DNA of 64,000 nucleotides from Draconibacterium sp. (lineage in GTDB: Bacteria > Bacteroidota > Bacteroidia > Bacteroidales > Prolixibacteraceae), in the NCBI GenBank assembly GCA_050179035.1, contig JBFXFM010000021.1:12-64011 (forward strand). Direction: 5' to 3'. The position numbers were made by a program, and so were the translations under genes. Shown here one piece after another: positions 33,994 to 55,428 of this stretch. The notes beneath the pieces were generated by a model. That model did not search any database, was not told the DNA's origin, and was given only the letters and a program-made list of their open reading frames with translations. Position 1 is the stretch's first letter, and the number at the start of each line of letters is the position of its first letter.

Positions 33994-34022
33994 TGCTTTA
34001 ATTTTTCTTCCATTATGCAACG

Positions 34023-34080
34023 TAAAAGTATGCCTACACTATTAAACCAGAATTACAGAAATATTACAGTTTTATTACAT
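34023..34080 (-). promoter_or_regulatory. Candidate Pho box (4 repeats, 11-bp period) + -7 element
   Basis: Plus strand from 34041: ATTAAACCAGA ATTACAGAAAT ATTACAGTTTT ATTACAT (TTA at 34042/53/64/75); TACTTTTA on the minus strand at 34023-34030. Confidence 0.7.
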
Positions 34081-34550: not shown

Positions 34551-34610
34551 TTTTTCATTTTTTTCGTATAACAAAGTAAACGTATTTTTTGAATTTAAGG
34601 TTTTAAAATA

Positions 34611-34676: not shown

Positions 34677-37601
34677 TTAATTTATCCTGTATGATAATGA
34701 GACGGTGTAGGTACGTCCCAGTTCGTATTGCTGGTATAAATAATCGTTGTTGTTGTATTTAACAGCTTTTTTAAATGCCGAATCGAGGATGTTGTTTACT
34801 TTAAATCCGAGGGTAAAATTGCGTAATACAGTTTTTGTAATGTTAAAATTCATCATTCCTTCGGTCGATTCATAAATGTCGGGTGTATCAATATTTGTCT
34901 CGGTCATCCGATCGCCAAATTTGTTGTAATCGAGTGTCGAGTTTAACCCTATTTCGGAATTTGAGTAGCTTAAATTTACATTTACAAGGTATGGCGACTG
35001 GCCAGGGAATGGTCTGGTTTTTTTAACCTCCCAGCCGTTGTTGGCAGCAGTTTCCTGTTCAAATTTGTTCACATCAACTTTCGAATCGATGAATGAAAAA
35101 TTGAGACCAAAACTAAAATCACGCAAACCATCAGCAATAAAATCGAGGTTTTTACGCGCTTCTAATTCAATTCCGGCAAGCTTACCTGTTTCGGAATTCT
35201 GATATTGAATTTGAGGATTTGGAACTTCGATAAGGTATTGCAGTACAATGGGGTTACTAAATTGTTTGTAATATGCGCTAACCGCAAACAACTCGCCAGG
35301 CCTTACAAACCATTCCCAACGGAGGTCGTAATTATTGATTTCGGTTCGTTTAAGGTTTGGGTTACCATTGTAAATTACACCACCAATAAAGTCGAACGAA
35401 GCAAAAGGCGCAAGTTCCCGCAGGTTGGGACGGGCAATGGTTTTACTGGCCGATGCTCTTACATTCATCGTTTCGGATAGTGCAAACACCAGGTTTACCG
35501 AGGGCAGCAGGTCTTTTTCATCAATTTCTCCTTCATAGTCGGCCAGATTCTCATCCGGAATGTATGAGAGCGCCACTACTTTTTCTCTGGGTTGCAGTTT
35601 CACTGACATGTAGGTGGTTTCGTAACGGGCTCCTACAATTGCCTTGAATTTTGGAGTGAAGTTGTAGGTTACCATTGCATACAAGGCATTAATATCGGTG
35701 GTTCCGAGATAATTGTTCTGATGTTTGGTTTGGTTGTACAAATAGTTGCCAATAATGTTTCTGTCTCTGGAATCAACTCCGATTATCCCTGTATTTGCAG
35801 GTCCGAAGTATTGATCTGAATTTCCGCCATAAGAAGTTCCTTTGTCGCGTTCGTACTGGTAAATGGTTTCAAAGAAATTACGCTCTTTGGTTGAATAAAG
35901 TCCGCCAAGCTTTATTTTGTTTGAACTGTTTTTTGATTGAAGAAATGGAATTGTGATGTCAATTTTTCCCTGTAACTGTTCGTCTTTTAATTCGCGCCAG
36001 AAATGAAAAGGCATATCGTATTCAGCCCTCGACATATAATATCCTGTGGTGTCATTATTTTCATCAAGTCGGTATGAGTTGGCGAAAAGCCGCATATCGG
36101 GTTCGTATTGTTTTGAAACGATTTTACTCCCACTGTAATCAATGCGGGTATTGTTCAGTCCCACGAAATTATGGTGTCCACTGATTTTGCCCATCTGCAT
36201 TTCGCGTTCGGTAAAACTCAGTGAGCGGGTTTGGAAGCGGGTATCGCCCGAAAGTGCAGCGGGGAAAACCCCATCCTGAAAACGTGCTGACTTCTCTGCA
36301 TCGTGGTTGTATGAATAGTTGATTTCAACTGAACCATTGTTGCTGTATTTAAAAGCCAATGTTGAAAGCCCGGTAATTTGCGGATTCTCGGTGGCTTTGG
36401 TGTCGTTCAGTATATAGTTTTCGCCCAATGCTTCAGCTCCGGCCTGAACAAGTTCCCAGTTGGCCGAAACGCCATCGCGGTAGTACGAAAAATTGCGGCG
36501 GTAATTTACACCCATAACAAAACCAATTTGTTTGTTGCGAAATACCTGCCATTGGTTACCAATTGAAAAAGCCACTTTCTGGTCGAGTGGGGCTGTCATT
36601 TCGGAGGGTGACATTTGAGAATTTACCGAACGGGCTGCATCATGGAGCAATGCTGCTTCATTTGGATATTTATCGCCCTGACGTGCTTTAATGTAGAGGT
36701 TTGTTGTTAACTCCCCGCCTCTGTCAACCAAAATACCCGGAATGTTGCGATATCCTTTGTCGTATCCAAGCCAATCGGTATTCGAACCCTGATAGGTTAA
36801 AAAGTCATTGTTAAAAGTTGATTGGTCGTTGTAGGCAGTGGAGATTTCAAAATTAAGCGTGAATTGTTCGGGGAAAGCTTTGGTTTTGATGTTCACATTT
36901 CCGCCGGTAAACGAACCAGGTAAGTCGGGAGTAAAAGTTTTTGAGGTGATAATGTTTTCGAGCAGGTTAGCAGGAATCAGGTCGAGGTCAGCAGAATTTT
37001 TATACGGATCAGTTCCGGGCAACTGCTGACCGTCCATTTGTACGCTTGAATAACGGTCGCCGAGTCCGCGAACAAATATGTCTTTGCCATTCATTACCGA
37101 AACGCCGGTAACTTTTATCATCGATTCGGCAGCATTCGAGCTTCCGAATCTTTTCATCTCAATCGAAGAAATCCCATCCTGTATTCCTTCAGCTTTTTTT
37201 TGCATGCTTAAAATGGCATTTTCGCTGTTGGTTAATTGTTTGGCCGTAATGGTAACTTCTGCAATTTCTTCAGTAGCTGGTGCCAACTGAATATTCATAA
37301 CTGTTACATCGCCGGGTTTTACTTCAATCCCTGAAATAGTTTGTGGTGCATACGAGATGTAACTAAAAACAAGAGTTACCATTCCTGAGGGCAGGTTTGG
37401 CAAGGTAAAATTACCATCGAAATCGGTAATTGTACCCGTTGTGGTTCCTTCAATAATAATGTTTACACCAATTAGGGTTTCCCCCGATTTTGCATCTGTA
37501 ATGGTGCCTCGAACAGTTCCTTTGTCTTGCGAAAATATGTTTTGTGATGACAGAAAGATGAAGAAAAGGATACTGAGAATTTTTACCAACTGTGTTTTCA
37601 T
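34677..37601 (-). CDS. TonB-dependent receptor (TBDR-1), no adjacent SusD
   Basis: 974 aa; signal, NTE domain, plug FVRGLGDRY..DLIPANLLENII..KTFTPDLPG.FTGGNVNIKT; C-terminal SLSYRIN. Confidence 0.95.
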   Translation of the reverse strand: MKTQLVKILSILFFIFLSSQNIFSQDKGTVRGTITDAKSGETLIGVNIIIEGTTTGTITDFDGNFTLPNLPSGMVTLVFSYISYAPQTISGIEVKPGDVTVMNIQLAPATEEIAEVTITAKQLTNSENAILSMQKKAEGIQDGISSIEMKRFGSSNAAESMIKVTGVSVMNGKDIFVRGLGDRYSSVQMDGQQLPGTDPYKNSADLDLIPANLLENIITSKTFTPDLPGSFTGGNVNIKTKAFPEQFTLNFEISTAYNDQSTFNNDFLTYQGSNTDWLGYDKGYRNIPGILVDRGGELTTNLYIKARQGDKYPNEAALLHDAARSVNSQMSPSEMTAPLDQKVAFSIGNQWQVFRNKQIGFVMGVNYRRNFSYYRDGVSANWELVQAGAEALGENYILNDTKATENPQITGLSTLAFKYSNNGSVEINYSYNHDAEKSARFQDGVFPAALSGDTRFQTRSLSFTEREMQMGKISGHHNFVGLNNTRIDYSGSKIVSKQYEPDMRLFANSYRLDENNDTTGYYMSRAEYDMPFHFWRELKDEQLQGKIDITIPFLQSKNSSNKIKLGGLYSTKERNFFETIYQYERDKGTSYGGNSDQYFGPANTGIIGVDSRDRNIIGNYLYNQTKHQNNYLGTTDINALYAMVTYNFTPKFKAIVGARYETTYMSVKLQPREKVVALSYIPDENLADYEGEIDEKDLLPSVNLVFALSETMNVRASASKTIARPNLRELAPFASFDFIGGVIYNGNPNLKRTEINNYDLRWEWFVRPGELFAVSAYYKQFSNPIVLQYLIEVPNPQIQYQNSETGKLAGIELEARKNLDFIADGLRDFSFGLNFSFIDSKVDVNKFEQETAANNGWEVKKTRPFPGQSPYLVNVNLSYSNSEIGLNSTLDYNKFGDRMTETNIDTPDIYESTEGMMNFNITKTVLRNFTLGFKVNNILDSAFKKAVKYNNNDYLYQQYELGRTYTVSLSYRIN

Positions 37602-37681: not shown

Positions 37682-40651
37682 TTATCTCACAATCATTTTG
37701 TTTACTGCTTTATTTTCACCGGCGTTGAGCTGGTAGAGATAAATACCTCTTTGCAAACCTGAAACATTAACCTTGTAAGTTCCTTTCTGCTGAGTTTCGC
37801 TTATCACCGATTTTACAATTTTACCTGTAACATCATAAACCATCAGGCTTACATTGGCCATTTCAGGAATGGTATATTCAATGGTTGTGGTTCCGTCAAA
37901 AGGATTCGGATAGTTTTGTTTCAATTCAAAACTGTTAATCCCCATTTCGTTAACCGAAACGTACAATTCGCCAAAATAGCCCATATTATCCAGAGCAGTC
38001 CACATTTTAGCCCAGTTTTCATGGCCAAACGCTCCTTTGTAAGCTGTTTCCTCTAATCCTGTGGTTACAAAAGCACCGGTAATCGGAGCTACATTTTCCC
38101 AGGCTGAACTTTGCGGATTCGGACGTGGGTCGAGTTTTCCATCGGCTTCGCGCGAAATTCCCGATATCATTGGGTTTGCTATGGTATTTGCGTTAGCAGT
38201 TAAGTGGTTAACAAGAAAAGCGCCTGTTACATCTTCGGCATCGCTTGTAACCTGAATCATTTTACCGGCAGCAAGTTCGTCGCCAGCACCAAAACCAAAC
38301 CAGATGTTATTTTTGAAAACGAGGTCGCCGTTTTCCATGTGTTTGCGTGAGTCGGTTCCTTTGTCGGCAGCGCGGTCTTCCACTTCAATAGCGCTGAAAG
38401 CAAATTCAGTAAAAATTGAGTTGGCATACATACCACCTGCTCCATCGCGCAACATTAAAGCCACGTCGCCTACATTTGAAGCGGTTCCCGGGCCAATGTA
38501 AGTAGCATTGAAAATTGTAGGTTTTGCAAATCTTGGGTTATCATCGGGGTGAGCGCCATCGTGTTCGCCACCTGAGCCTGCATCGTCAGTACCCTGAATT
38601 GCAAACCAGAACTGGCCACCGCCTCTCCATCCGTCGTCATAATCAAAAGCATCGTCGCCACAGAAAGCAGCAATGAGGTATTTTGTCATTACAGTACCAC
38701 CCCAGAATTCGAAACCATCATCAGAGTTGGCAAACACTTCCACGTTTTCGATTACGGTCTGGCTGCCAACACCGGCAACCGACAAACCGTTGATTTCGTT
38801 ACCTGGCGAGAGTTCAGCACCACCGTGGCGTATTGAAACATATTTGAAAACTCCTGTATTGTGAGTATCGTCGTCTCCGCCAAATTTGGCACGTTCTTCA
38901 CCAGCAGGGATACCTTCAATTGCAGATTCGGCAGCGGTGAACCCGATAACGCCTTTACCCAGAAGGATAACACCACCCCAAAGACCTCGGTCTTCGTGGG
39001 TTAAATCAGCAGGGTCGGTTAAATCATCATCTTCGGCAGTGAAGATAATCGGGAGTTCAGCAGTACCTTCGGCCATAATTTTGGCATCGCGTGTAATAAT
39101 CAGTGCCGAAGCATTGTCACCGGTTGTAGGTGTTGCTTTGGCTTTGATAACCGTTCCGGCATCAATTGTTAAAGTACCCGATTCGAGGAAAACAAAACCA
39201 TCGAGCAGGTAAGTTTTGTCTGCTGTCCAGTGTGCATCACCGGTTAAGGTAGCGTCGGTAACCAATACTTCAGTTCCGCCGGCAGAGAAATCAAGATCCC
39301 CGAAATAACCCATTTTATCAAGTGCTGTCCAACCAAGCGCCCAGTTGGTTGAGCCAAAGGCTCCCCTGTAACTTGTGCTCATTATATTTTCATTGTCTGA
39401 AGAAGCAGAGCCGCTCCATGCCGGACTGCCGGCTGCAAGTCTTGGGTCGAGCTGACCATTAGCTTCACGGCTGATTCCGCGGAATTTTGGGTTTGCTATG
39501 GTATTTGCGTTAGCAGTTAAGTGGTTAACAAGAAAAGCGCCTGTTACATCTTCGGCATCGCTTGTAACCTGAATCATTTTACCGGCAGCAAGTTCGTCGC
39601 CAGCACCAAAACCAAACCAGATGTTATTTTTGAAAACGAGGTCGCCGTTTTCCATGTGTTTGCGTGAGTCGGTTCCTTTGTCGGCAGCGCGGTCTTCCAC
39701 TTCAATAGCGCTGAAAGCAAATTCAGTAAAAATTGAGTTGGCATACATACCACCTGCTCCATCGCGCAACATTAAAGCCACGTCGCCTACATTTGAAGCG
39801 GTTCCCGGGCCAATGTAAGTAGCATTGAAAATTGTAGGTTTTGCAAATCTTGGGTTATCATCGGGGTGAGCGCCATCGTGTTCGCCACCTGAGCCTGCAT
39901 CGTCAGTACCCTGAATTGCAAACCAGAACTGGCCACCGCCTCTCCATCCGTCGTCATAATCAAAAGCATCGTCGCCACAGAAAGCAGCAATGAGGTATTT
40001 TGTCATTACAGTACCACCCCAGAATTCGAAACCATCATCAGAGTTGGCAAACACTTCCACGTTTTCGATTACGGTCTGGCTGCCAACACCGGCAACCGAC
40101 AAACCGTTGATTTCGTTACCTGGCGAGAGTTCAGCACCACCGTGGCGTATTGAAACATATTTGAAAACTCCTGTATTGTGAGTATCGTCGTCTCCGCCAA
40201 ATTTGGCACGTTCTTCACCAGCAGGGATACCTTCAATTGCAGATTCGGCAGCGGTGAACCCGATAACGCCTTTACCCAGAAGGATAACACCACCCCAAAG
40301 ACCTCGGTCTTCGTGGGTTAAATCAGCAGGGTCGGTTAAATCATCATCTTCGGCAGTGAAGATAATCGGGAGTTCAGCAGTACCTTCGGCCATAATTTTG
40401 GCATCGCGTGTAATAATCAGTGCCGAAGCATTGTCACCGGTTGTAGGTGTTGCTTTGGCTTTGATAACCGTTCCGGCATCAATTGTTAAAGTACCCGATT
40501 CGAGGAAAACAAAACCATCGAGCAGGTAAGTTTTGTCTGCTGTCCAGTGTGCATCACCGGTTAAGGTGGCATCGGTAACAGTTATTATGGTTTGTGCATT
40601 CATTGCAAAAGCCATAATAAGAAAGGAAATCATTAAAGTAAATTTTCTCAT
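37682..40651 (-). CDS. T9SS-secreted protein 1: two tandem beta-helix-like domains + type-A CTD
   Basis: 989 aa; signal peptide; duplicated ~439-aa unit (TLTIDAGT, NEINGLSVAGVGSQT, DDGFEFWGG, DDAFDYDDG); CTD QNYPNPF..YDVTGK..GIYLYQL..KMIVR. Confidence 0.92.
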   Translation of the reverse strand: MRKFTLMISFLIMAFAMNAQTIITVTDATLTGDAHWTADKTYLLDGFVFLESGTLTIDAGTVIKAKATPTTGDNASALIITRDAKIMAEGTAELPIIFTAEDDDLTDPADLTHEDRGLWGGVILLGKGVIGFTAAESAIEGIPAGEERAKFGGDDDTHNTGVFKYVSIRHGGAELSPGNEINGLSVAGVGSQTVIENVEVFANSDDGFEFWGGTVMTKYLIAAFCGDDAFDYDDGWRGGGQFWFAIQGTDDAGSGGEHDGAHPDDNPRFAKPTIFNATYIGPGTASNVGDVALMLRDGAGGMYANSIFTEFAFSAIEVEDRAADKGTDSRKHMENGDLVFKNNIWFGFGAGDELAAGKMIQVTSDAEDVTGAFLVNHLTANANTIANPKFRGISREANGQLDPRLAAGSPAWSGSASSDNENIMSTSYRGAFGSTNWALGWTALDKMGYFGDLDFSAGGTEVLVTDATLTGDAHWTADKTYLLDGFVFLESGTLTIDAGTVIKAKATPTTGDNASALIITRDAKIMAEGTAELPIIFTAEDDDLTDPADLTHEDRGLWGGVILLGKGVIGFTAAESAIEGIPAGEERAKFGGDDDTHNTGVFKYVSIRHGGAELSPGNEINGLSVAGVGSQTVIENVEVFANSDDGFEFWGGTVMTKYLIAAFCGDDAFDYDDGWRGGGQFWFAIQGTDDAGSGGEHDGAHPDDNPRFAKPTIFNATYIGPGTASNVGDVALMLRDGAGGMYANSIFTEFAFSAIEVEDRAADKGTDSRKHMENGDLVFKNNIWFGFGAGDELAAGKMIQVTSDAEDVTGAFLVNHLTANANTIANPMISGISREADGKLDPRPNPQSSAWENVAPITGAFVTTGLEETAYKGAFGHENWAKMWTALDNMGYFGELYVSVNEMGINSFELKQNYPNPFDGTTTIEYTIPEMANVSLMVYDVTGKIVKSVISETQQKGTYKVNVSGLQRGIYLYQLNAGENKAVNKMIVR
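38170..39250. repeat. Copy B of the 1081-bp intragenic direct repeat
   Basis: Offset 1317 bp from copy A; six pairs of shadow ORFs in different frames translate identically; boundaries read by eye. Confidence 0.92.
39487..40567. repeat. Copy A of the 1081-bp intragenic direct repeat
   Basis: Matches 38170-39250; first mismatches at 39486/38169 and 40568/39251. Confidence 0.92.
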
Positions 40652-40692
40652 AATGTATTTATTTTCTGTGATTTAAAATAAAATAACGGGGG

Positions 40693-40750
40693 CGAAAAAA
40701 AGGTATTAATATTACAAGGGGGTTAATATTAATTTAAGGACTTGTTACAT
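40693..40750 (-). promoter_or_regulatory. Candidate Pho box (4 repeats, 11-bp period) for the T9SS-1/TBDR-1 operon
   Basis: Plus strand from 40711: ATTACAAGGGG GTTAATATTAA TTTAAGGACTT GTTACAT (TTA at 40712/23/34/45); degenerate -7 element TTTTTTCG. Confidence 0.65.
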
Positions 40751-40890
40751 TAGATTAATAAAAATGTAACAATTATAAAAATGTAATAGTAACAGCGTTT
40801 TCAGCTCTTGAGTATAGAAGCAATGGTGTTAACTAAATTTGACGTGTTAATGTTAACTTAAGAAACCGTAGTGCGATATTTAGGTTGGAG

Positions 40891-42651
40891 CTACCTTTTT
40901 GCCAGCGTAAACAGGAACTCGACACCACCGGTTTCGCGGTTACGCACCGAGATATCGCCTTTGTGCAACTGAACTGCGTTTTTTACGATAGCCAGCCCCA
41001 GTCCGGTTCCTCCGGCTTCGCGGGTGCGGCCATGGTCAACCCGGTAAAACCTTTCAAAAATCCGCGAAAGGTGTTCTTCCGGAATTCCGGCGCCCGTGTC
41101 GGAATACGAGAAATAGTAGTATTTATCGTCTTCGTGATAAACTTTTATCTGTATAGAAATTCCTTTTCCACCGTAATTGATCGAGTTTTCCACAAGGTTT
41201 TGGAAAACCGAGAAAAGCAGCGATTCGTTACCATTTATAATTGTATTTTCAGGGATTTCGGTTGTAAATCTGATGTTTTTTTCATCAATCCGGTTGGCAA
41301 AATTCTGGTAAACTTCTTCGATGAGGGTTTTCAAATCAGTTAGTTTAAACCTGAAAAGTTCTCCCGCGTCTTCAATGTTTGTCAGCAACGAAACATCGTT
41401 TATCAGGTGGGTGAGGCGCTGCGACTGCAAGTATGCTTTTTCAAGAAAATAGCGTTGTTTTTCAGCCGAAACAGGCCTGTTTTCCAATATTGTCTCAAGA
41501 TATCCTTTAATTGACGCCAACGGAGTTTTCAACTCGTGGGCAATGTTCGAAGTGAGTTGCTGTTTCATCAGCCTTCGCTTTTCGAGCCGGGTGATATCTG
41601 TAATCACGACTTCGAAACTAAGGTCGGGGAAAATGATGCTTTGTACTTTTAGAAATTTTTCGCCTTTTGAAATAGTAAACTCCGACTGTTGCAGATTTTC
41701 TGACGAACTGTTGGTAATTGACGGATTTTCTACAAACCGGGTTAGTTCGGCAAACTCTTCCATTTTGAAAATGTGCTCGGGTACAGTAACTTTTTTGTCG
41801 GATATCGAATTGAGGTACTGAATAAAATAGCGGTTCGAAAGTGTTTTTTGTTTTCCGGGCGAAAAGAAAGCGATGCCTTCGTTTAGCGCATTCAGATGGC
41901 TTAGCAGTTTTTCGCGTTCGGTGGCCAACTCGTCCTTGGTTTTTTTCAGGTCACTATAAATAGCAATAATTTGCGAACCAATCGTTCCCAGTTCGTTACC
42001 CGGAAATTCGGTAACCGTGTCAATCTGTTCTTTTTTACCAGCTTTTACTGCAAAATCGCGGAGCTTTGTAATGGCGTCGGCCATACGCGAAGTAATGAAA
42101 AACAATACAATACCAATAATGGAAAATGCAGCTACAATAAAAAAGATGTAATATCGCTCCGTCTTCAGAAAATTCTGGACCTGAACGTCGTAAACAACCG
42201 CTGTACGTACAAAAAAGTGACTGTATTTTTTGGCGTAATAGTAATAAACTTCATTTGTTGTATCCGAGAGGCGGATATTGGCTCCTGATTTGTGTTTAAA
42301 GGCTTTGTCAATTTCAGGTCGGTGGAGGTGGTTTTCCATGGTTCGGTAATTCTCAACCGAACTGTCGAAAATTACTTCGCCATTCAGCATAATAACAGTA
42401 ATTCTCAGGTGTTCCTGCGGAATTATTTCCTTTAATCCCGTAATGCGACTCATTTGGTTTTGTCTAACCAAATCGTTCTTTTCAATAAATAAAGCGGTGA
42501 TTTCGGTAATATTATCGAGCGTATTTTCCAACTGCCGGGTGCGGAATTTTTTCTCGCGTTCGTACTGAAATGCCAGCACGGATGCCGTAAACAAAAAGAA
42601 AACCACAATGTAGTAGAGAAAAATTTTTCCCCTGAAGGAATTTGAATTCAC
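40891..42651 (-). CDS. PhoR-like sensor histidine kinase
   Basis: 586 aa; two TMs; TSNIAHELKTPLASIKGYLET, NLVENSINY, DTGAGIP..RIFERFYRVD..R.REAGGTGLGL. Confidence 0.9.
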   Translation of the reverse strand: MNSNSFRGKIFLYYIVVFFLFTASVLAFQYEREKKFRTRQLENTLDNITEITALFIEKNDLVRQNQMSRITGLKEIIPQEHLRITVIMLNGEVIFDSSVENYRTMENHLHRPEIDKAFKHKSGANIRLSDTTNEVYYYYAKKYSHFFVRTAVVYDVQVQNFLKTERYYIFFIVAAFSIIGIVLFFITSRMADAITKLRDFAVKAGKKEQIDTVTEFPGNELGTIGSQIIAIYSDLKKTKDELATEREKLLSHLNALNEGIAFFSPGKQKTLSNRYFIQYLNSISDKKVTVPEHIFKMEEFAELTRFVENPSITNSSSENLQQSEFTISKGEKFLKVQSIIFPDLSFEVVITDITRLEKRRLMKQQLTSNIAHELKTPLASIKGYLETILENRPVSAEKQRYFLEKAYLQSQRLTHLINDVSLLTNIEDAGELFRFKLTDLKTLIEEVYQNFANRIDEKNIRFTTEIPENTIINGNESLLFSVFQNLVENSINYGGKGISIQIKVYHEDDKYYYFSYSDTGAGIPEEHLSRIFERFYRVDHGRTREAGGTGLGLAIVKNAVQLHKGDISVRNRETGGVEFLFTLAKR

Positions 42652-42666
42652 ACTTGTATTTTTGAA

Positions 42667-43353
42667 CTATTCAATATTTACAAAGCTGTAGCCGTACCCC
42701 GATTTGCCTTTTATATTATCGCTGTACTGGCCTATTTTCCTGCGCAAACGGGCAATATTCACATCCACATTGCGGTCGGTAACAATCACATCGTAATTCC
42801 AGATGCTTTTCAGAATTTCCTCGCGGCTGATGTATTTTCCCATATTTTTTACAAGCAATACAAGAATTTCGTACTCTTTGCGGGTGAGGTTAACTGGTAT
42901 GCCTTCAATCAGTGTTTCCTTTTTATCAGGGTTGATTTTCAGGTCGCGGTAAACCATCTGGTTACTTTCTTTTTCGGGTTTGGTACCTCTTTTCAAGATC
43001 GCTTTTATTCGGGCAATAATTTCCTTTATTGAAAAGGGTTTCGAGATGTAATCGTCGGCACCCACATTAAAACCGGTGAGAATGTCGTTTTCTTCGGTTT
43101 TGGCGGTAAGAAAAATAATAGGGATTTCAAGTTTTTTTTCTTTCCGTATCACATTGGCAACCTTGAAACCAGAGATTCCACCCATCATTACATCAAGCAG
43201 AATGAGGTCGAATTCCTCAAGTGGTTTTTTCAGTGCATCTTCGCCAGAGTGGGCAATATCAATGTCGAAACCTTCGCTTTCAAGATTAAATTCAAGAATT
43301 TCGCAAAGGTCTTTTTCGTCGTCAACGATCAGTATTTTTTTCTTCGATTCCAT
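42667..43353 (-). CDS. PhoB/PhoP-like OmpR-family response regulator
   Basis: 228 aa; IVDDE, LLDVMM, FLTAK, DDYISKPF; wHTH LTRKEYEIL..RNVDVNIARLRRKI. Confidence 0.92.
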   Translation of the reverse strand: MESKKKILIVDDEKDLCEILEFNLESEGFDIDIAHSGEDALKKPLEEFDLILLDVMMGGISGFKVANVIRKEKKLEIPIIFLTAKTEENDILTGFNVGADDYISKPFSIKEIIARIKAILKRGTKPEKESNQMVYRDLKINPDKKETLIEGIPVNLTRKEYEILVLLVKNMGKYISREEILKSIWNYDVIVTDRNVDVNIARLRRKIGQYSDNIKGKSGYGYSFVNIE

Positions 43354-43490
43354 TTTAAAAGGCTTATCAGAAATTTAACTTTAATTGAACCTAAATTTTA
43401 CATTTCGTGCAATTTGGCTGGTGTTGTTTATTCGCTGTCCTAAAAAACCTGTTTTATTAAACATTTTACCCGCCAGATATTACATAAATG

Positions 43491-43555
43491 TATAAGTAGA
43501 GCAAAGTTGTTACAATCCGGTCACTAAATTATTAAATATTATTAATTTATATTTG
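43491..43555. promoter_or_regulatory. Divergent phoBR/porin promoter region with a candidate Pho box
   Basis: GTTACAATCCG GTCACTAAATT ATTAAAT from 43509 (11-bp period); perfect TATATTTG on the plus strand at 43548-43555; weak TACTTATA on the minus strand at 43491-43498. Confidence 0.55.
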
Positions 43556-43580
43556 CGCCGACATTTTTTACAACATAATA

Positions 43581-44576
43581 ATGAAGCGATATCTACTGTT
43601 CCTGTTATTGACTTTATTCCCCGCATTTCTTTATTCCCAACCCGCTGAATTTGTTCCTTCCGGCAAACCATTTGCTACCATTTTCGCCAACTTCCACCAG
43701 GGAATTACAGGTTCGGCAAAAGAGGAAGCTGCTTTCGAACTTGTGCGCGGGTACATTGGATACGAGTACAATTTCAGTCCTGAATTTTACGCAAAAATCA
43801 ATGTGGATGTTGGAAGCCCAAACGACCTTTCGCCCTACTCGAAAGCGCGTCGTTATGCATATTTTAAAAATGCCTATTTGCGCTACATGAAAAAAGGGCT
43901 TACCATCGATTTCGGGTTAATTGATATGCGCCAGTTTAAGTTGCAGGAAGCAGTATGGGAACGCCGCTACCTTATGAAATCACTTGCCGATGAATACCAG
44001 CTTGGGCAGTCAGCCGACCTTGGAATGAACGTAAACTACAAATTTACAAACTGGATTGATGCCGATTTTTCTGTTTCCAACGGCGAAGGGTACAGCAGCA
44101 TTCAAATGGACGATGTGTTTAAATATGGAATCGGCTCAACAATTACATTACCTGAAGATTTTACCTCGCGAATCTTTTATGAATTCACCAAAAAGGAAAT
44201 CACCGAAACCACGCTAACTCTTTTTACTTCGTACGACTTTAAAAAGATTTGGAATATCGCGGGTGAAGCGGTGATGAGGCAAAACGACAAGTGGAAAGAG
44301 AACCAAAATATTTTTGGCTGGTCGGTATATGCAAAATACAACCTTACAAAAAAATACCAGCTTTTTGCACGTTACGACCGCGTAACATCTAATATTCTTA
44401 AAGACGAAATCAACCCGTGGAATCTGGCGAATGACGGAACTGCGCTTGTTGCCGGAATCCAGTTTCAGCCCATCAGCAAAATTAAAATGGCACTCAATTA
44501 CCACGACTGGTATCCGCTGGCTGCCAACATGGAAGGCGGTGGTTTTATTTATTTCGATGTTGAAGTAAAACTGTAA
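43581..44576 (+). CDS. Outer-membrane porin (possibly phosphate-selective OprO/P-like)
   Basis: 331 aa; signal peptide; amphipathic beta-strands; AYFKNAYL; C-terminal YFDVEVKL. Substrate inferred from context only. Confidence 0.7.
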   Translation: MKRYLLFLLLTLFPAFLYSQPAEFVPSGKPFATIFANFHQGITGSAKEEAAFELVRGYIGYEYNFSPEFYAKINVDVGSPNDLSPYSKARRYAYFKNAYLRYMKKGLTIDFGLIDMRQFKLQEAVWERRYLMKSLADEYQLGQSADLGMNVNYKFTNWIDADFSVSNGEGYSSIQMDDVFKYGIGSTITLPEDFTSRIFYEFTKKEITETTLTLFTSYDFKKIWNIAGEAVMRQNDKWKENQNIFGWSVYAKYNLTKKYQLFARYDRVTSNILKDEINPWNLANDGTALVAGIQFQPISKIKMALNYHDWYPLAANMEGGGFIYFDVEVKL

Positions 44577-44586
44577 ACAGCCAGCC

Positions 44587-45897
44587 ATGAAAAGAAATTT
44601 TATTCTGATATCTGCATTTATTTTAATGTTAGTTAGCTGCCGAAAAAGTGATTATGAGCTCGAAACCAGCGGCAATAATATTGTTGACAATGGTGCCGGA
44701 ACCGGAACTGTTACCTGGACAAAAGACAAAGAATATGTAATTGAAGGTTTTGTTTTTGTAAACGACGGGCAAACACTTACCATTGAACCTGGAACCGTGG
44801 TGCGCTTTGCAGCCGGTGAAGGTGAAAATGCCAGTGCGTTGATTGTTTCGCGTGGAGGTAAAATTATGGCCGAAGGAACTGCCGATGAACCCATTATTTT
44901 TACAGCAGAATCAGACGACCTGATTCTTTCGGTGGAAAAAGAAAAAAGGGGTTTATGGGGCGGATTGATGATTCTTGGAAATGCCCCGATTAACGTAAAA
45001 GGCGGCGAATCGACAATCGAAGGTATTCCTTTCTCAGAGCCGCGCGGTGTGTTTGGCGGGCCCGACGAAAACGACGATTCGGGTGTTCTGAAATATGTTT
45101 CAATTCGCCATGGAGGAACAAACATTGGCGATGGCAACGAAATTAACGGACTTACACTGGGCGGCGTAGGCAGCAAAACTATCGTCGATTATGTTGAAAT
45201 TATTTCGAATGAAGACGATGGAGTTGAAATTTTTGGCGGCACTGTAAACCTGAAACACATGGCGGTTTCGGGTTGTGGCGACGATGCTTTCGACTACGAT
45301 TTGGGCTGGAATGGAAAAGGGCAGTTCTGGCTCGCTGTTCAGAATGATAATCTTGGCGACCAGATTATTGAGGCTGGTGGCGGAACCGACCCTGTAATTG
45401 GTACGCCAAATTCACTTCCCAATATATTCAATGTTACCCTTGTTGGCAACGGAAATAATGGAGATGGCGGATGTGTGAAATTTTTTAATTACGCCGGAGG
45501 AAATATTGCCAACTCGGTTATTATCAACAATAATCACGGTATTTTGCTCGAAGTTACCGATGCCCAGCACGACAGTTACGCACAGTGGCTGCAAGGGAAA
45601 CTTGAGGTGAAGAACAATGTTTTTTACGATGTGGCATCTTCAACACCGGCAACAGTTTTTTCACTCACCGGTTTTTATTCGACCGACCAGCAAACTTTAT
45701 GGTCCAACAGTTTTGTCACTTCTAAAAACGAATTCACCAATCCGAACATGGATTGGAAAAACGGTGATTATTTGCCAAATCCGAAATTGCAGGGGAACAT
45801 GGCAGAATACCCCGATTCATGGTTTCAGGTTGTAAATTTTAAGGGCGCGTTTGGCGAAAGTAATTGGATTGAAGGCTGGACTTTGCTTGCAGAATAA
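44587..45897 (+). CDS. Lipoprotein carrying one copy of the same beta-helix-like domain as T9SS protein 1
   Basis: Lipobox LVSC followed by RKSDYELE; TLTIEPGT, NEINGLTLGGVGSKT, DDGVEIFGG, DDAFDYDLG. Confidence 0.9.
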   Translation: MKRNFILISAFILMLVSCRKSDYELETSGNNIVDNGAGTGTVTWTKDKEYVIEGFVFVNDGQTLTIEPGTVVRFAAGEGENASALIVSRGGKIMAEGTADEPIIFTAESDDLILSVEKEKRGLWGGLMILGNAPINVKGGESTIEGIPFSEPRGVFGGPDENDDSGVLKYVSIRHGGTNIGDGNEINGLTLGGVGSKTIVDYVEIISNEDDGVEIFGGTVNLKHMAVSGCGDDAFDYDLGWNGKGQFWLAVQNDNLGDQIIEAGGGTDPVIGTPNSLPNIFNVTLVGNGNNGDGGCVKFFNYAGGNIANSVIINNNHGILLEVTDAQHDSYAQWLQGKLEVKNNVFYDVASSTPATVFSLTGFYSTDQQTLWSNSFVTSKNEFTNPNMDWKNGDYLPNPKLQGNMAEYPDSWFQVVNFKGAFGESNWIEGWTLLAE

Positions 45898-46308
45898 TCA
45901 ATACACCGGAAAAAACCCGCTCACTCTTGATTTTACATTTTGCACACTGGCCAACATCTGCCGGGCATTCAGGTTAAAATATTGCTGGGCTTCGGTGTTG
46001 TTGTAAAATTTGCCAAATTTTCTGAGTGGTTTTACGCGCTGTTCAAGTGTATCGGCTAATTCCATAAACTCTTCAATGCCAACTTCCTGGGTTTCGAGCG
46101 TATAAATTACATCGGTTTCGTAATCGTAAGTAAAGTCGGCATGTAACGCCAGAACCCATTCCTGTGTTGTATCATCCTCGTTTTCACTTCTGAATTGGGT
46201 ATAACAAACAAGCATTCGGCCATCGGGCATTCCGAAAAAACTTACAGGCAAAAACGTCTGAAAACAGGTGTTATTCGATTTGTATATTAAACGTGATTTT
46301 GTTGACAT
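45898..46308 (-). CDS. Hypothetical cytoplasmic protein, paralog of 53189-53563
   Basis: MSTKSRLIYKSNNTCFQTFLPVSFFGMPDG; likely start 46308, preceded by AAAGGAGG. Confidence 0.8.
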   Translation of the reverse strand: MSTKSRLIYKSNNTCFQTFLPVSFFGMPDGRMLVCYTQFRSENEDDTTQEWVLALHADFTYDYETDVIYTLETQEVGIEEFMELADTLEQRVKPLRKFGKFYNNTEAQQYFNLNARQMLASVQNVKSRVSGFFPVY

Positions 46309-46352
46309 GGCGCCTCCTTTTTTTAATTTGAGCAAATTACACCGAATGATTT

Positions 46353-46410
46353 CAAAAGCAGCGAAAATCAGATTAATGTTTGGTAAACAATGGGTTAAAA
46401 AAATGTTACG
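46353..46410 (-). promoter_or_regulatory. Candidate Pho box for the 45898-46308 gene
   Basis: ATTAATGTTTG GTAAACAATGG GTTAAAAAAAT GTTACG from 46372; TGCTTTTG -7 element on the minus strand at 46353-46360. Confidence 0.55.
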
Positions 46411-46553: not shown

Positions 46554-46719
46554 ATCTGGCGCACCTCTCATAATCTGAAAGTAGTTTGAAATACAGGTGC
46601 TGACAACCGGTTTTTTCAGATTTACAAGTTGAGGCAGGATGTTCAAAAATCTAAGGCAAAACTTCAGCCTAAATCAGGTGAATGATTGTAAACCGTTTTT
46701 TGTATTTTTAAGAAAAAAA

Positions 46720-47256
46720 ATGATGAGACTTTTATCCTTGCTTTTCATTATAATTCTGGCCACCGGTTGCCAAACCGAAAACAGAAAGGCTGAACCCTCG
46801 CAAAAACGAAGCCACCCGAGCCATCGGTACAATTATGTAACTGTCGATACAACAACATTGAATTATTTCGAAACCGACTACCTGCCGGTTTACTCCGATA
46901 TTTATTATGAGAATGGCACACAGCGGTTCCCGATTACAGCCACTGTGAGTTTGCGCAACACTTCGCTTACCGATTCGGCGTATGTACTTTCGGCCCGATA
47001 TTACGACTCGTATGGTAAAATGCTTCACGTTTATATCGATTCCACCTTGTTGCTGTCGCCACTTGAGTCGGTTGAACTGGTAGTTGAAGAAGGTGAAAAA
47101 GCAGGTGGAGCCGGCGCTAATTTTATCATCGAATGGGCGGCTGCCAAATACACCAACCAGATGCTGATTCAATCGGTAATGATTAGCACGTACGGGCAGC
47201 AGGGCGTTTCATTTCTTTCGGAAGCGAAGGTTATTCAACGGAAAAACCGGGAATGA
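46720..47256 (+). CDS. DUF3124 lipoprotein
   Basis: Lipobox ATGC; YLPVYSDIY, TVSLRNT, RYYDSYG, GGAGANFIIEW, IQSVMI. Confidence 0.85.
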   Translation: MMRLLSLLFIIILATGCQTENRKAEPSQKRSHPSHRYNYVTVDTTTLNYFETDYLPVYSDIYYENGTQRFPITATVSLRNTSLTDSAYVLSARYYDSYGKMLHVYIDSTLLLSPLESVELVVEEGEKAGGAGANFIIEWAAAKYTNQMLIQSVMISTYGQQGVSFLSEAKVIQRKNRE

Positions 47257-47259
47257 TTT

Positions 47260-48393
47260 TTATTGTTCCAGATTCAACACTTTTGCAATTTCTGCCCACG
47301 AAATGTATTTGTAGTTCTGGCTTTTCTTTTTCCTTCCGTCGTAATTAAAACCATCCTGCACCACCAGCATTCCCTGCGGAAATCCGGGCAAAGCAACCGT
47401 GGTAATATCCAATCCGTCGGTTTCTTCAACACCATCAACAACTCCATCAGTAATCCTGAAACTGCCCAGATATTTGTTTTCTCCCTGCCGTTCGAAAACT
47501 GCGTACGAAAAGTTTCCCTGCGATGAGGCTACCAGGTAGCCATTTAGACTGTCGGTTGCATAAATCGCCAGTCCTTCAATATCGTATTTTATATTCAGAT
47601 TTTCTTCGGAGCTTTTTTGTATGAATTTCCCCTCGGTTGAACCCTCGGGTTCGGCGTCAAATTTCCAAATTCCGGCCTGTTCTTCACCGATGTAAAGGAT
47701 TCCGGTTTCGTCGTCGGCTACCATTCCTTCGGTTTGGGTGCCAATTTTCAGTGAGCGAACCAGTTTTGCATCAACTTTATTTTCGGCAGCAAAAAGTTCG
47801 TATTGTTCCACTTCGCCCGATTTGCCGTTTACAAAAACATAAAACAGCCCGGTTTTTTTACTTCGGTACATGCACAAACCATACACTTCGTCGCTCATGG
47901 CCGATTTGATAATACGGTTGTGTACCGAGTCGAGCCCACCATTTTCAACTATTCTGAAAAGTGAAACCGATTGCATGGTACGGTTGCTGGCAGCGAGAAT
48001 ATCGATGGTGTCGCCATTCAGCGGAAAACCGTAACGCAGGTCGCAATTGTTCATATCGCCGGTGGCGTAATAGTTGAGTTGTTTTCCGGTTAAATCGTAA
48101 GTTGCGAGTCCGCCTTTTTTATCGGTCCCGATAATTACTGATTTTTCAGGGTTTTGAGGATGAATCCAAATTGCCGGGTCATCAGCCGAATCGTCGTTTT
48201 TTCCGCGCGGTGTTGGTTCGGTTTCAATACTTGCGGCAACCAGATTCTTAATGTGTTCGCCTGCTTTGCGCGAGCCTTCGCCAGGGCGGTTACACGAATT
48301 AAATGTTATCAAAACAAACAGCCCGATAAACAGGCTGGTTGTTCCAGGGAATATTTTCATTTCTTTCATCGGTATTTTTGAATCAATTTTCAT
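47260..48393 (-). CDS. Beta-propeller phytase (3-phytase), lipoprotein
   Basis: DSADDPAIWIHP, IIGTDKKGGL, MNNCDLR, YGLCMY, TQTEGMVAD, YIGEE..GIWK, DIEGL, ETDGLD, VVQDG; lipobox FNSC; the true start may lie ~33 bp inside the ORF. Confidence 0.93.
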   Translation of the reverse strand: MKIDSKIPMKEMKIFPGTTSLFIGLFVLITFNSCNRPGEGSRKAGEHIKNLVAASIETEPTPRGKNDDSADDPAIWIHPQNPEKSVIIGTDKKGGLATYDLTGKQLNYYATGDMNNCDLRYGFPLNGDTIDILAASNRTMQSVSLFRIVENGGLDSVHNRIIKSAMSDEVYGLCMYRSKKTGLFYVFVNGKSGEVEQYELFAAENKVDAKLVRSLKIGTQTEGMVADDETGILYIGEEQAGIWKFDAEPEGSTEGKFIQKSSEENLNIKYDIEGLAIYATDSLNGYLVASSQGNFSYAVFERQGENKYLGSFRITDGVVDGVEETDGLDITTVALPGFPQGMLVVQDGFNYDGRKKKSQNYKYISWAEIAKVLNLEQ

Positions 48394-48400
48394 AAGTATT

Positions 48401-53034: not shown

Positions 53035-53092
53035 CAAGATTAACAAGTGGCATTTAAACGCAGGTTACAATCAGATTAAGTGAATGTTACAG
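53035..53092 (-). promoter_or_regulatory. Candidate Pho box (4 repeats, 11-bp period) for the T9SS-2/TBDR-2/phytase operon
   Basis: TTTAAACGCAG GTTACAATCAG ATTAAGTGAAT GTTACAG from 53053; TAATCTTG -7 element on the minus strand at 53035-53042. Confidence 0.7.
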
Positions 53093-54567: not shown

Positions 54568-54570
54568 TTT

Positions 54571-55407: not shown

Positions 55408-55428
55408 AGTTAATTCACTATAATGCTG

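What the first reader, a model, noticed from the sequence alone, without database searches (positions are those of the whole stretch)
37682..45897. One uncharacterised beta-helix-like domain deployed three times, by two export routes
Seen: the same domain (TLTI.(A/P)GT, ALI..R..KIMAEGTA..PIIFTAE.DD, GLWGG, NEINGL...GVGS.T, DDG.E.(W/F)GG, DDAFDYD.G..G.GQFW.A.Q) occurs twice in the T9SS protein and once in a lipoprotein. The lipoprotein has an acidic/Lys stretch after the Cys that resembles the Bacteroidota surface-export signal. The conserved Asp clusters suggest Ca/metal binding. From memory, the family resembles phosphate-starvation lipoproteins found next to TBDRs in Proteobacteria (e.g. Caulobacter ElpS); this is unverified. 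Inference: a phosphate-mineral or organophosphate binding/mobilising protein of unknown biochemistry.
Basis: partly seen in the sequence, partly recalled or inferred. Interest (0 to 1): 0.66.

Follow-up and report, generated by a model that had tools for sequence, protein, structure and literature searches.

The report
Phosphate-starvation ElpS-family beta-helix surface proteins
Three copies of a beta-helix domain flanking the phosphate-sensing genes phoB/phoR belong to the already described but biochemically unsolved ElpS family of phosphate-starvation surface proteins, so this is a new member of a known family rather than a new kind of system.

Summary
One ~400-aa domain occurs three times: twice in a 989-aa T9SS cargo protein and once in a 436-aa lipoprotein (38-39% identity, E 1e-86). 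The domain is Pfam PF28492 (Beta_helix_4), with more than 8,000 clusters at 50% identity.

I located Caulobacter elpS using published primers. ElpS is a true homologue (39% over 205 aa, E 5e-39), and its neighbouring TonB receptor matches the one beside the T9SS gene.

The literature already describes this family: ElpS, Flavobacterium FI/FII/FIII, and Bacteroides BT4056. Its members are strongly phosphate-starvation induced, surface or secreted, and TonB-transporter-linked. No biochemical activity is known.

The locus here is a Pho island containing phoBR, pitA, phytase, a PlcP-like phosphoesterase and a porin. Pho-box-like TGTAAY repeats at 11-bp spacing lie upstream of both beta-helix operons.

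Points that may be new:
- The two T9SS copies share 1,081 nt at 100% DNA identity, while their tails are only 50% identical. Read depth in four metagenomes shows this tandem pair is real. The pattern points to gene conversion.
- The lipoprotein is paired with a porin, not a TonB receptor.

Most likely mechanism: metal-dependent extracellular capture of a phosphorus-containing ligand. This is unproven.

The parts
37682..40651 (-). T9SS cargo protein, 989 aa. Layout: signal peptide (..MNA|Q), Beta_helix_4 copy 1 (aa 24-462), copy 2 (aa 463-901), type A C-terminal sorting domain (aa 914-988).
39487..40567 (-). Core of domain copy 1. 1,081 nt, 100% identical in DNA to 38170-39250.
   Evidence: In Logan assemblies it forms a separate 1,081-nt contig at 2x depth.
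38170..39250 (-). Core of domain copy 2, identical to copy 1.
39251..39486 (-). Tail of copy 1 plus the inter-domain linker. Only 50% aa identity to the tail of copy 2. Unique junction at 1x depth.
37688..37912 (-). T9SS C-terminal sorting domain (Por_Secre_tail / TIGR04183).
34677..37601 (-). TonB-dependent receptor 1 (CarboxypepD_reg + Plug + barrel), immediately downstream of the T9SS gene. Closest of the two window TBDRs to Caulobacter CC0171.
   Evidence: The same pairing is seen.
40891..42651 (-). phoR (Bacteroidota PhoR equivalog NF053855, 673 bits against a cutoff of 500).
42667..43353 (-). phoB (NF053854, 317 bits against a cutoff of 270).
43581..44576 (+). 16-stranded general porin fold (OmpC/OmpF/OprP-like). 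First gene of the porin-lipoprotein operon.
   Evidence: Pairing conserved.
44587..45897 (+). Beta_helix_4 (ElpS-family) lipoprotein, 436 aa. Cys18, conserved CRKSDYxLE tether, beta-helix at aa ~38-380, conserved C-terminal GAFG..NW..GW motif.
40711..40727 (-). Pho-box-like site ATTAAC-N5-TGTAAT, 60-76 nt upstream of the T9SS gene. Conserved in L002 (GTTAAC-N5-TGTAAT).
43509..43525 (-). Pho-box-like site AGTGAC-N5-TGTAAC in the phoB/porin divergent region. It lies about 23 nt upstream of a TAnnTTTG -7 box and falls in a block conserved across four genomes. The L009 orthologous site is a perfect match.
34041..34079 (-). Array of four TGTAAT half-sites at 11-bp spacing, upstream of the CarboxypepD_reg-PhoU_div-PitA genes. 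This is the best Pho-box-like site in the window.
47260..51274 (-). Second Pho module: TonB-dependent receptor 2 (48401-51274) plus beta-propeller phytase (47260-48393).

Best explanation
Both genes encode ElpS-family (Pfam PF28492, Beta_helix_4) right-handed beta-helix proteins of the phosphate-starvation (Pho) regulon. Both proteins are placed outside the outer membrane. One is a lipoprotein, co-transcribed with a Pho-controlled porin. The other is a T9SS cargo protein carrying two gene-conversion-homogenised copies of the domain, co-transcribed with a TonB-dependent receptor. Shown here: homology to ElpS, the fold class, the export signals, the Pho-island context, the Pho-box-like sites, and conserved TBDR adjacency across phyla. 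Inferred: the domain is a non-catalytic or weakly catalytic capture module. A ladder of about 11 invariant Asp/Glu residues on successive helix rungs would hold divalent metal, probably Ca2+. Through that metal the domain would bind an anionic phosphorus-containing ligand at the cell surface and pass it, or the phosphate released from it, to the adjacent outer-membrane channel. Tandem copies would raise valency. My confidence in family membership, Pho control and surface location is about 0.9. My confidence in the capture mechanism is about 0.45.
For: - ElpS homology: E 5e-39, with all family-invariant acidic residues retained.
- PF28492 is annotated on the window's own lipoprotein and on every homologue listed for either protein.
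- The AF2 model has pLDDT 78 and pTM 0.81. It is a beta-helix with only generic fold matches.
- PhoR and PhoB equivalogs score above their curated cutoffs.
- PitA, PhoU_div, phytase and a PlcP-like phosphoesterase lie in the same island.
- Pho-box-like repeats are enriched: 41 found against 21.8 expected. They occur at 7.4 per kb in island promoters against 0.36 per kb in other intergenic DNA. They recur upstream of the orthologous operons in five other loci.
- TBDR adjacency holds in Caulobacter, Prolixibacteraceae, Acidobacteriota and Zixibacteria.
- Published work: ElpS is Pi-starvation induced and surface-exposed, and the purified protein has no pNPP phosphatase activity (PMC2996285). F. 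johnsoniae FI is the most induced gene and makes up 18.7% of the Pi-deplete exoproteome, which is an abundance typical of binding proteins (PMC8115612). BT4056 is proposed as a TBDT lid, with gene proximity conserved in 621 genera (bioRxiv 10.1101/2023.03.17.533168).
- Apart from R174, no basic residue is conserved in the family. Anion binding would therefore need a metal bridge.
Against: - No ligand, metal or transporter interaction has been demonstrated for any member of the family.
- AlphaFold-Multimer gave few high-confidence BT4055-BT4056 contacts (the Price preprint).
- Proteins with two to six tandem domains cannot act as a 1:1 lid on a transporter.
- The lipoprotein copy here sits next to a diffusion porin rather than a TBDR. 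That fits a protein releasing a small product at least as well as a capture model.
- Stacked acidic residues on beta-helix rungs are also the hallmark of glycosidase and lyase active sites.
- The Pho-box motif was derived partly from the same regions it was scored on. No expression data exist for this organism.
Confidence: 0.55

Rival explanations
1. The domain is an extracellular enzyme: a lyase, hydrolase or phosphodiesterase of the pectin-lyase-fold type. It would cleave an anionic phosphorus-containing polymer (teichoic acid, phosphoglycan, polyphosphate, eDNA) or a glycan that masks such a substrate. The products would enter through the adjacent TBDR or porin.
For: - It has a right-handed beta-helix fold. 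The best, though weak, Foldseek matches are carbohydrate-active enzymes: AlgE4 epimerase, pectin methylesterase, PL3/PL6 lyases and GH110.
- Invariant Asp/Glu residues sit on successive rungs, with one invariant Arg (R174).
- The lipoprotein is paired with a diffusion porin, which suits a small product.
- Lidbury et al. modelled FI/FII on a polygalacturonase (PMC8115612).
Against: - Foldseek E-values are all above 1e-3 with TM 0.16-0.36, so only the fold class is shared.
- Neither a single sequence nor a profile finds any relative among PDB sequences. No catalytic Pfam family matches.
- The order of the GH28 motifs (NTD, DD, GHG, RIK) is not reproduced (read directly from the sequence).
- Purified ElpS had no pNPP activity (PMC2996285).
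- Very high abundance in the exoproteome is unusual for an enzyme.
Confidence: 0.27
2. The domain mobilises mineral phosphate. The acidic ladder would sequester Ca2+, Fe3+ or Al3+ at mineral or colloid surfaces, freeing orthophosphate, which then enters through the Pho porin or the TBDR.
For: About 11 invariant acidic residues and almost no conserved basic ones. Porin pairing. Occurrence in sediment, groundwater, cave and landfill metagenomes. Very high secreted abundance of homologues (PMC8115612).
Against: There is no direct evidence. Stoichiometric sequestration by a protein is costly. The strict TBDR pairing across phyla suggests a specific ligand larger than orthophosphate.
Confidence: 0.1
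3. The domain is an accessory or activator of secreted phosphatases, as originally proposed for ElpS, for example by scaffolding or stabilising them or supplying them with metal.
For: Overexpressing ElpS raised alkaline phosphatase activity in the supernatant although ElpS itself was inactive (PMC2996285). A phytase and other Pho enzymes lie nearby.
Against: Deleting elpS had no effect on phosphatase activity (PMC2996285). No phosphatase gene is consistently adjacent, whereas a TBDR is.
Confidence: 0.06
4. The tandem duplication in the T9SS gene is an assembly artefact, and the real gene has one domain, like the 93%-identical 550-aa homologue P0134.
For: P0134 and two other close relatives have a single domain. 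A perfect 1,081-nt repeat is hard to assemble from short reads.
Against: In four independent metagenomes the core is a separate contig at about twice the flank depth (33.8 against 15.7-17.4; 34 against 15-19; 32.8 against 17.4-17.7). The unique 296-nt junction carrying tail 1 is present at single depth. The single-domain relatives may themselves be collapsed repeats.
Confidence: 0.02

Closest known systems
ElpS (CC0170/CCNA_00169) of Caulobacter crescentus, with its neighbouring TonB-dependent receptor CC0171 (PMC2996285)
   Same: Homologous beta-helix core (39% identity over 205 aa, E 5e-39). All family-invariant acidic residues are kept. Both are lipoproteins. A homologous TBDR lies next door. 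Both are linked to phosphate starvation.
   Different: ElpS has a Pro/Thr-rich linker and a different C-terminal part. It is released with the help of a T2SS. It has no T9SS form, no tandem copies and no porin partner.
Flavobacterium johnsoniae FI/FII/FIII lipoproteins (Fjoh_3856, Fjoh_0546, Fjoh_4889; PMC8115612)
   Same: Bacteroidota ElpS homologues. They are among the most Pi-depletion-induced genes and proteins. FII lies in a phoBR operon with an OprP-type porin and a TBDT, which is very like the arrangement here.
   Different: Homology to the window proteins is inferred through ElpS and was not tested directly. FI-FIII are single-domain lipoproteins. The tandem T9SS form and the porin-lipoprotein operon were not described there.
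Bacteroides thetaiotaomicron BT4055/BT4056, a putative TBDT 'lid' pair (bioRxiv 10.1101/2023.03.17.533168)
   Same: Same family according to the authors (ElpS and Fjoh_0546 homologue). A surface lipoprotein is encoded beside a non-SusC TBDT. The proximity is conserved in 621 genera.
   Different: The lid role is a prediction with few confident contacts. Multi-domain T9SS proteins cannot be simple 1:1 lids. The window's lipoprotein is not next to a TBDR.
Pectin-lyase-fold enzymes (GH28 polygalacturonases, PL1/3/6 lyases, CE8 pectin methylesterases, AlgE epimerases)
   Same: Right-handed parallel beta-helix with acidic residues stacked on successive rungs.
   Different: Only the fold class is shared (Foldseek E above 1e-3, TM 0.36 or less, about 10% identity). 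There is no profile match and the catalytic motifs are not reproduced.
Hemophore and SusD-type surface capture proteins that feed TonB-dependent transporters
   Same: Proposed working logic: an abundant surface or secreted binder is encoded next to the transporter and induced by starvation for the nutrient.
   Different: Unrelated folds. No ligand is known for this family.

Membership tests
ElpS / FI-FIII / BT4056 family (Pfam PF28492 Beta_helix_4) | Significant sequence homology to ElpS itself | tested here: met
   elpS was located with the published primer GTGAAGCTGTATAGAAACCTAA. It encodes a 515-aa protein with an LAGC lipobox and a C-terminus matching the published tagging primer. BLASTP against the lipoprotein gives E 5e-39. 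tblastn with the T9SS protein as query gives E 6e-25 for each of its two domain copies.
ElpS / FI-FIII / BT4056 family (Pfam PF28492 Beta_helix_4) | Match to the Pfam model PF28492 | tested here: met
   The precomputed annotation lists PF28492 for the 100%-identical protein P0001, for the gene in L001, and for every homologue listed for either protein. The local Pfam copy lacks this model, so I could not rescore it.
ElpS / FI-FIII / BT4056 family (Pfam PF28492 Beta_helix_4) | Right-handed parallel beta-helix fold | tested here: met
   AF2 model with pLDDT 78 and pTM 0.81. All top Foldseek hits are beta-helix proteins.
ElpS / FI-FIII / BT4056 family (Pfam PF28492 Beta_helix_4) | Encoded next to a TonB-dependent transporter | tested here: met
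   The T9SS gene is directly upstream of TBDR1. The same pairing appears in L002, L005, L009-L013 and in Caulobacter. This feature is not met for the lipoprotein copy, whose operon partner is a porin.
ElpS / FI-FIII / BT4056 family (Pfam PF28492 Beta_helix_4) | Induced by phosphate starvation through PhoB | tested here: inconclusive
   The genes flank phoBR. Pho-box-like repeats lie upstream of both operons and are conserved in orthologous loci. No transcript data are available. Induction has been shown only for homologues (PMC2996285, PMC8115612).
ElpS / FI-FIII / BT4056 family (Pfam PF28492 Beta_helix_4) | Located on the cell surface or secreted | not testable with these tools
   Sequence signals only: lipobox LVSC followed by the conserved CRKSDYxLE, and a type A T9SS C-terminal domain.
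T9SS type A cargo | C-terminal sorting domain above the curated cutoffs, plus an N-terminal signal peptide | tested here: met
   PF18962 scores 52 bits against a cutoff of 27. TIGR04183 scores 48 bits against a cutoff of 23. The signal peptide ends ..AMNA|Q.
Bacteroidota surface-exported lipoprotein (lipoprotein export signal) | Lys/Gln followed by acidic residues immediately after the lipidated Cys | tested here: inconclusive
   The sequence is C-R-K-S-D-Y-E-L-E. C18, R19, S21 and D22 are at least 90% conserved in 42 orthologues. The acidic residues are not contiguous as in the published consensus (recalled from memory). No scoring matrix was available.
Specific carbohydrate-active beta-helix families (GH28, PL1/3/6/9, CE8, AlgE) | Significant sequence or structure similarity and the family's catalytic motifs | tested here: not met
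   Foldseek E is 1.3e-3 or worse with TM 0.36 or less. phmmer and a profile search against PDB sequences find nothing. No Pfam family matches in 24 diverse members.
SusC/SusD pair | SusC-family TBDT with an adjacent SusD lipoprotein | tested here: not met
   TBDR1 matches TIGR04056 only over its N-terminal 100 residues (82 bits against a cutoff of 368). No SusD family hit was found in the genes scanned.
Phosphate-regulated porin (PhoE/OprP analogues), for the gene at 43581-44576 | 16-stranded porin fold under Pho control. Anion or phosphate selectivity. | tested here: inconclusive
   The fold criterion is met (TM 0.62-0.69 to OmpC/OmpF/OmpU and 0.67 to OprP, E about 1e-12). A Pho-box-like site lies upstream. 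Selectivity residues were not examined. There is no sequence-level match to Porin_O_P.

The most novel reading that the evidence does not exclude
The ElpS/Beta_helix_4 domain is a metal-bridged 'phosphophore': an extracellular capture module for a phosphorus-containing ligand that feeds a dedicated TonB-dependent uptake route. Bacteroidota and other phyla would have built polyvalent versions of it, as T9SS-delivered arrays of two to six copies kept near-identical by gene conversion. A lineage-specific lipoprotein version would be coupled to a Pho-regulated porin.
Probability: 0.3. Interest if true: 0.7.

Novelty: new member of a known kind. Interest (0 to 1): 0.42.

Why it matters
The family is very large: 8,219 clusters at 50% identity, found in Bacteroidota, Proteobacteria, Acidobacteriota, Zixibacteria and Verrucomicrobiota. 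Its members are among the most strongly induced and most abundant extracellular proteins under phosphate limitation. Yet no ligand, metal or activity is known for any of them. Solving its function would define a TonB-dependent branch of bacterial phosphorus acquisition, relevant to soils, sediments and the gut. This window adds no new family. It does offer a compact, well-delimited Pho island in which the domain appears in two anchoring modes and with two channel partners. It also offers a clear case of domain homogenisation that could guide construct design and hypotheses about valency.

Tried and rejected
- The local Pfam and NCBIfam libraries gave no family for the domain. The name of PF28492 came only from precomputed annotation. 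A literature search for 'PF28492' found nothing.
- Searches of PDB sequences with one protein and with a 24-member profile found nothing meaningful. The best hit was a 39-residue stretch of apyrase at E 0.47.
- Foldseek gave only the fold class.
- The listing of cluster members on ten single-domain representatives gave no useful taxonomy.
- The lookup of P0139 failed.
- No RNA runs hold the locus.
- I considered that the third T9SS protein (51375-53009) might be a fourth, diverged copy of the domain. It is unrelated.
- I considered that the tandem duplication was an assembly artefact. Read depth rejects this.
- I considered a fresh duplication rather than gene conversion. This is disfavoured, because the tails are only 50% identical while the cores are 100% identical, and the single-domain orthologue differs from the core by 12% in DNA.
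- A strict Pho box (one mismatch or fewer) is not present upstream of the two beta-helix operons in this window. Only two-mismatch sites are.

Full report
**What is there.** The region holds the following genes, left to right in window coordinates.
- A TonB-dependent receptor (TBDR1) at 34677-37601(-), with CarboxypepD_reg, Plug and barrel domains.
- A 989-aa protein at 37682-40651(-).
- phoR at 40891-42651(-), matching the Bacteroidota PhoR equivalog NF053855 at 673 bits against a cutoff of 500.
- phoB at 42667-43353(-), matching NF053854 at 317 bits against a cutoff of 270.
- A 331-aa outer-membrane protein at 43581-44576(+), transcribed divergently from phoB.
- A 436-aa lipoprotein at 44587-45897(+), starting 11 nt after the outer-membrane protein gene.

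The 989-aa protein has a signal peptide and a type A T9SS C-terminal sorting domain at aa 914-988, above both curated cutoffs.

- The lipoprotein aligns end to end with two consecutive segments of the T9SS protein, at 38% and 39% identity (E 1e-86 and 3e-85).
- tblastn finds exactly these three copies in the window.

**The two T9SS copies are not independent.**
- A 1,081-nt core is 100% identical in DNA between them (39487-40567 and 38170-39250; spacing 1,317 nt).
- The last ~75 residues of each copy are only 50% identical. The best 80-nt local stretch of tail DNA is about 69% identical.
- The closest relative, P0134 in locus L002, has a single domain. It differs from the core by 12% in DNA and carries the tail-2 type.

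A perfect core flanked by old, diverged tails points to gene conversion, or unequal exchange, between domains that were already duplicated. It does not look like a fresh duplication.

This pattern is general in the family. In 117 relatives with two or three domains, the domains within one protein are 68-98% identical to each other. The same proteins are only 38-71% identical to the window protein.

The pair is not an assembly artefact. In Logan assemblies of four unrelated metagenomes (landfill, biofilm, cave and one unspecified), three things hold:
- The core is a separate 1,081-nt contig at about twice the flank depth. Examples are 33.8 against 15.7-17.4, and 34 against 15-19.
- The unique 296-nt junction (39221-39516) is at single depth.
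- The flanking contigs stop at the repeat edges.

**What the domain is.**
- The local Pfam copy has no model for it. Precomputed annotation assigns PF28492, named Beta_helix_4, to the window's own lipoprotein and to all listed homologues of both proteins.
- The family is very large. It has 8,219 clusters at 50% identity with E of 1e-3 or better, and proteins carry from one to six copies.
- An AF2 model of the lipoprotein (pLDDT 78, pTM 0.81) is a right-handed parallel beta-helix.
- Foldseek against the PDB gives only fold-class matches: AlgE4, pectin methylesterases, PL3/PL6 lyases, GH110 and tailspikes. The best E is 1.3e-3, TM is 0.36 or less, and identity is about 10%.
- Neither phmmer nor a 24-member profile finds any relative with a solved structure.

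**The ElpS test.** I took the cloning primer for the elpS start from Text S1 of Le Blastier et al. (PMC2996285) and searched genome contigs with it.
- This located the gene in three Caulobacter vibrioides assemblies.
- The ORF (L008:3937-5484, 515 aa) has the LAGC lipobox at 17-20 described in the paper. It ends in TACTSLPTN, which matches the published tagging primer.
- BLASTP against the window lipoprotein gives 39% identity over 205 aa, E 5e-39.
- tblastn with the T9SS protein as query gives E 6e-25 for each of its two domain copies.
- The receptor encoded just downstream of elpS (CC0171) matches TBDR1 (E about 1e-27) much better than the window's second receptor (about 1e-10).

The homology is therefore real, and the beta-helix/TBDR gene pair is conserved between an alphaproteobacterium and this Bacteroidota genome.

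**What the literature already says.**
- ElpS is induced by phosphate starvation and is a surface lipoprotein. It is released in a T2SS- and protease-dependent way. The purified protein has no pNPP phosphatase activity, although overexpression raises phosphatase activity in the supernatant (PMC2996285).
- In Flavobacterium johnsoniae, three ElpS homologues were described: FI, FII and FIII (Fjoh_3856, Fjoh_0546, Fjoh_4889). They are among the most Pi-depletion-induced genes. FI makes up 18.7% of the exoproteome. Two of the four low-Pi hypothetical lipoproteins reported there lie downstream of low-Pi TBDTs. FII lies in a phoBR operon with an OprP porin and a TBDT (PMC8115612).
- A 2023 preprint proposes that BT4056 of B. 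thetaiotaomicron is a 'lid' for the TBDT BT4055. BT4056 is 40% identical to Fjoh_0546 and is an ElpS homologue. The gene proximity is conserved in 621 genera, but there are few confident AlphaFold-Multimer contacts (10.1101/2023.03.17.533168).

The family, its Pho regulation and its link to TonB transporters are thus known. Its biochemistry is not.

**The context here is a Pho island.** Besides phoBR it contains:
- PitA/PHO4 (31652-32713) and PhoU_div (32754-33407).
- A small CarboxypepD_reg protein (33643-34020) and a MORN_2 protein (34080-34574).
- DUF3124 (46639-47256).
- A beta-propeller phytase (47260-48393) with a second TBDR (48401-51274).
- A second T9SS protein (51375-53009).
- A glycosyltransferase plus a PlcP-like metallophosphoesterase (53581-55431). 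This is the lipid-remodelling pair known from Pho regulons (PMC4796936).

The core arrangement is: beta-helix protein plus TBDR, then phoR and phoB, then divergently the porin and the beta-helix lipoprotein, followed by PlcP, phytase and PHO4. This arrangement is conserved in Mariniphaga, Maribellus and a 6-Mb relative. The closest relative (L002) adds pstB and phoU. In Acidobacteriota and Zixibacteria, multi-domain Beta_helix_4 proteins again follow a CarboxypepD_reg-type TBDR directly.

**Regulatory sites.** The promoter regions of the island contain direct repeats of TGTAAY at 11-bp spacing. This is the architecture of the E. coli Pho box (CTGTCAT repeats; established knowledge).
- With up to two mismatches there are 41 matches in the window, against 21.8 +/- 4.4 in shuffles. 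None of 100 shuffles reached 41.
- Fourteen matches fall in 1,893 nt of island promoter DNA. Only two fall in 5,543 nt of other intergenic DNA with the same G+C content.
- In-register arrays of three or four half-sites precede three operons: the CarboxypepD_reg-PhoU_div-PitA genes (34041-34079), the second T9SS-TBDR2-phytase operon (53053-53091), and the PlcP operon (55447-55474).
- Two-mismatch sites precede the T9SS beta-helix gene (40711-40727) and lie in the phoB/porin region (43509-43525).
- The phoB/porin site falls in the one block conserved in a four-genome alignment. It lies about 23 nt upstream of a TAnnTTTG -7 element.

I derived the motif partly from these same regions, so I checked five other loci. 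There the repeats recur upstream of the orthologous beta-helix/TBDR, porin-lipoprotein, PlcP, CarboxypepD_reg and TBDR2 genes. One of them, in L009, is a perfect TGTAAC-N5-TGTAAC upstream of the porin. This is good but indirect evidence for PhoB control. No RNA data exist for this organism.

**The lipoprotein's partner is a porin.** The 331-aa protein has no Pfam family. NCBI names its homologues 'porin', and they number only about 400. Its AF2 model (pLDDT 76) is a 16-stranded barrel. It matches OmpC, OmpF and OmpU (TM 0.62-0.69) and OprP (TM 0.67) at E about 1e-12. In this lineage, then, one ElpS-type protein is coupled to a TonB transporter and another to a diffusion channel.

**Mechanism.** I aligned 127 diverse domains, ElpS included. 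The residues conserved at 90% or more, beyond glycines and core hydrophobics, are W124, E145, D163, E185, D210, D211, E214, D232, D233, D236, D238, Q246, E262, N282 and N309. An Asp also aligns with lipoprotein G264 in 87% of the domains. R174 is the only invariant basic residue, and that is in a smaller alignment.

The strand pattern of the model places 'NEDDG-VEIF', 'GDDA-FDYD' and the flanking E185 and E262/D264 at equivalent positions on four successive rungs. This implies a stacked acidic ladder.

A site this acidic cannot bind phosphate anions directly. It could hold Ca2+ or another metal that bridges an anionic ligand, or it could be a catalytic groove.

My preferred reading is metal-dependent capture of a phosphorus-containing ligand, handed to the adjacent channel. 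The arguments for it are:
- The very high abundance of homologues.
- The lack of pNPP activity in ElpS.
- The obligatory TBDR partner across phyla.
- The tandem copies, which would add valency.

The main rival is an enzyme acting on an anionic polymer. The porin pairing and the fold keep that rival alive. Cation sequestration from mineral phosphate and a phosphatase-accessory role are less likely alternatives. A strict 1:1 'lid' model fits poorly with proteins of two to six domains.

**Verdict.** The finding is a new member of a known, published and Pfam-listed family whose function is still open. Three elements appear not to be described in the papers I could read:
- T9SS-delivered tandem arrays homogenised by gene conversion.
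- The porin-coupled lipoprotein variant.
- The candidate Bacteroidota Pho box.

These are modest extensions, not a new kind of system.

Noticed in passing
51375-53009 (-): A second T9SS cargo protein (544 aa, Por_Secre_tail at 472-543) lies directly upstream of TBDR2 and the phytase. It consists of two tandem 220-aa copies (52281-52940 and 51621-52280) that are 89% identical in protein and 84% in DNA. The acidic domain has no Pfam family and is unrelated to Beta_helix_4. It is absent from the orthologous position in L010 and L011.
   Followed up: partly
34041-34079, 40711-40727, 43509-43525, 46394-46410, 53053-53091, 55447-55474: A candidate Bacteroidota Pho box: direct TGTAAY repeats at 11-bp spacing. 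It is 20-fold denser in the promoters of the phosphate island than in other intergenic DNA, and it recurs upstream of orthologous operons in five other loci.
   Followed up: yes
43581-44576 (+): A 331-aa protein without any Pfam family folds as a 16-stranded OmpC/OprP-like porin. It forms a conserved operon with the beta-helix lipoprotein in Prolixibacteraceae-like genomes. The family is narrow, with about 400 homologues.
   Followed up: yes
33643-34574 (-); L002:12384-13316; L005:8525-9424; L013:12533-13390: A MORN_2 repeat protein (164 aa) and a small protein consisting only of a CarboxypepD_reg domain (125 aa) follow TBDR1. This pair recurs after the TBDR in L002 and L005, and a MORN_2 protein also neighbours the Zixibacteria locus. 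The small protein is preceded by the strongest Pho-box-like array.
   Followed up: partly
53581-55431 (-): A glycosyltransferase (Glyco_trans_1_3) plus a PlcP-like metallophosphoesterase. This is the phosphate-starvation lipid-remodelling pair, with a Pho-box-like array upstream (55447-55474).
   Followed up: partly
relatives P0121-P0240: In 117 relatives with two or three domains, the copies within one protein are 68-98% identical, while the same proteins are only 38-71% identical to the window protein. This indicates family-wide concerted evolution or recurrent duplication of the domain.
   Followed up: partly
38000-40000: The repeated core has a higher G+C content (0.478; tail 1 is 0.513) than the neighbouring genes (0.41-0.44).
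   Followed up: no
45898-46335 (-) and 46639-47256 (+): A 145-aa ORF without any family and a DUF3124 protein lie between the lipoprotein and the phytase. A two-mismatch Pho-box-like site (46394-46410) lies between these two ORFs.
   Followed up: no
L002/L003/L004 (P0134): The 93%-identical single-domain orthologue comes only from short-read metagenome assemblies. It could be a collapsed version of a tandem gene, so counts of one-domain relatives may be inflated.
   Followed up: no
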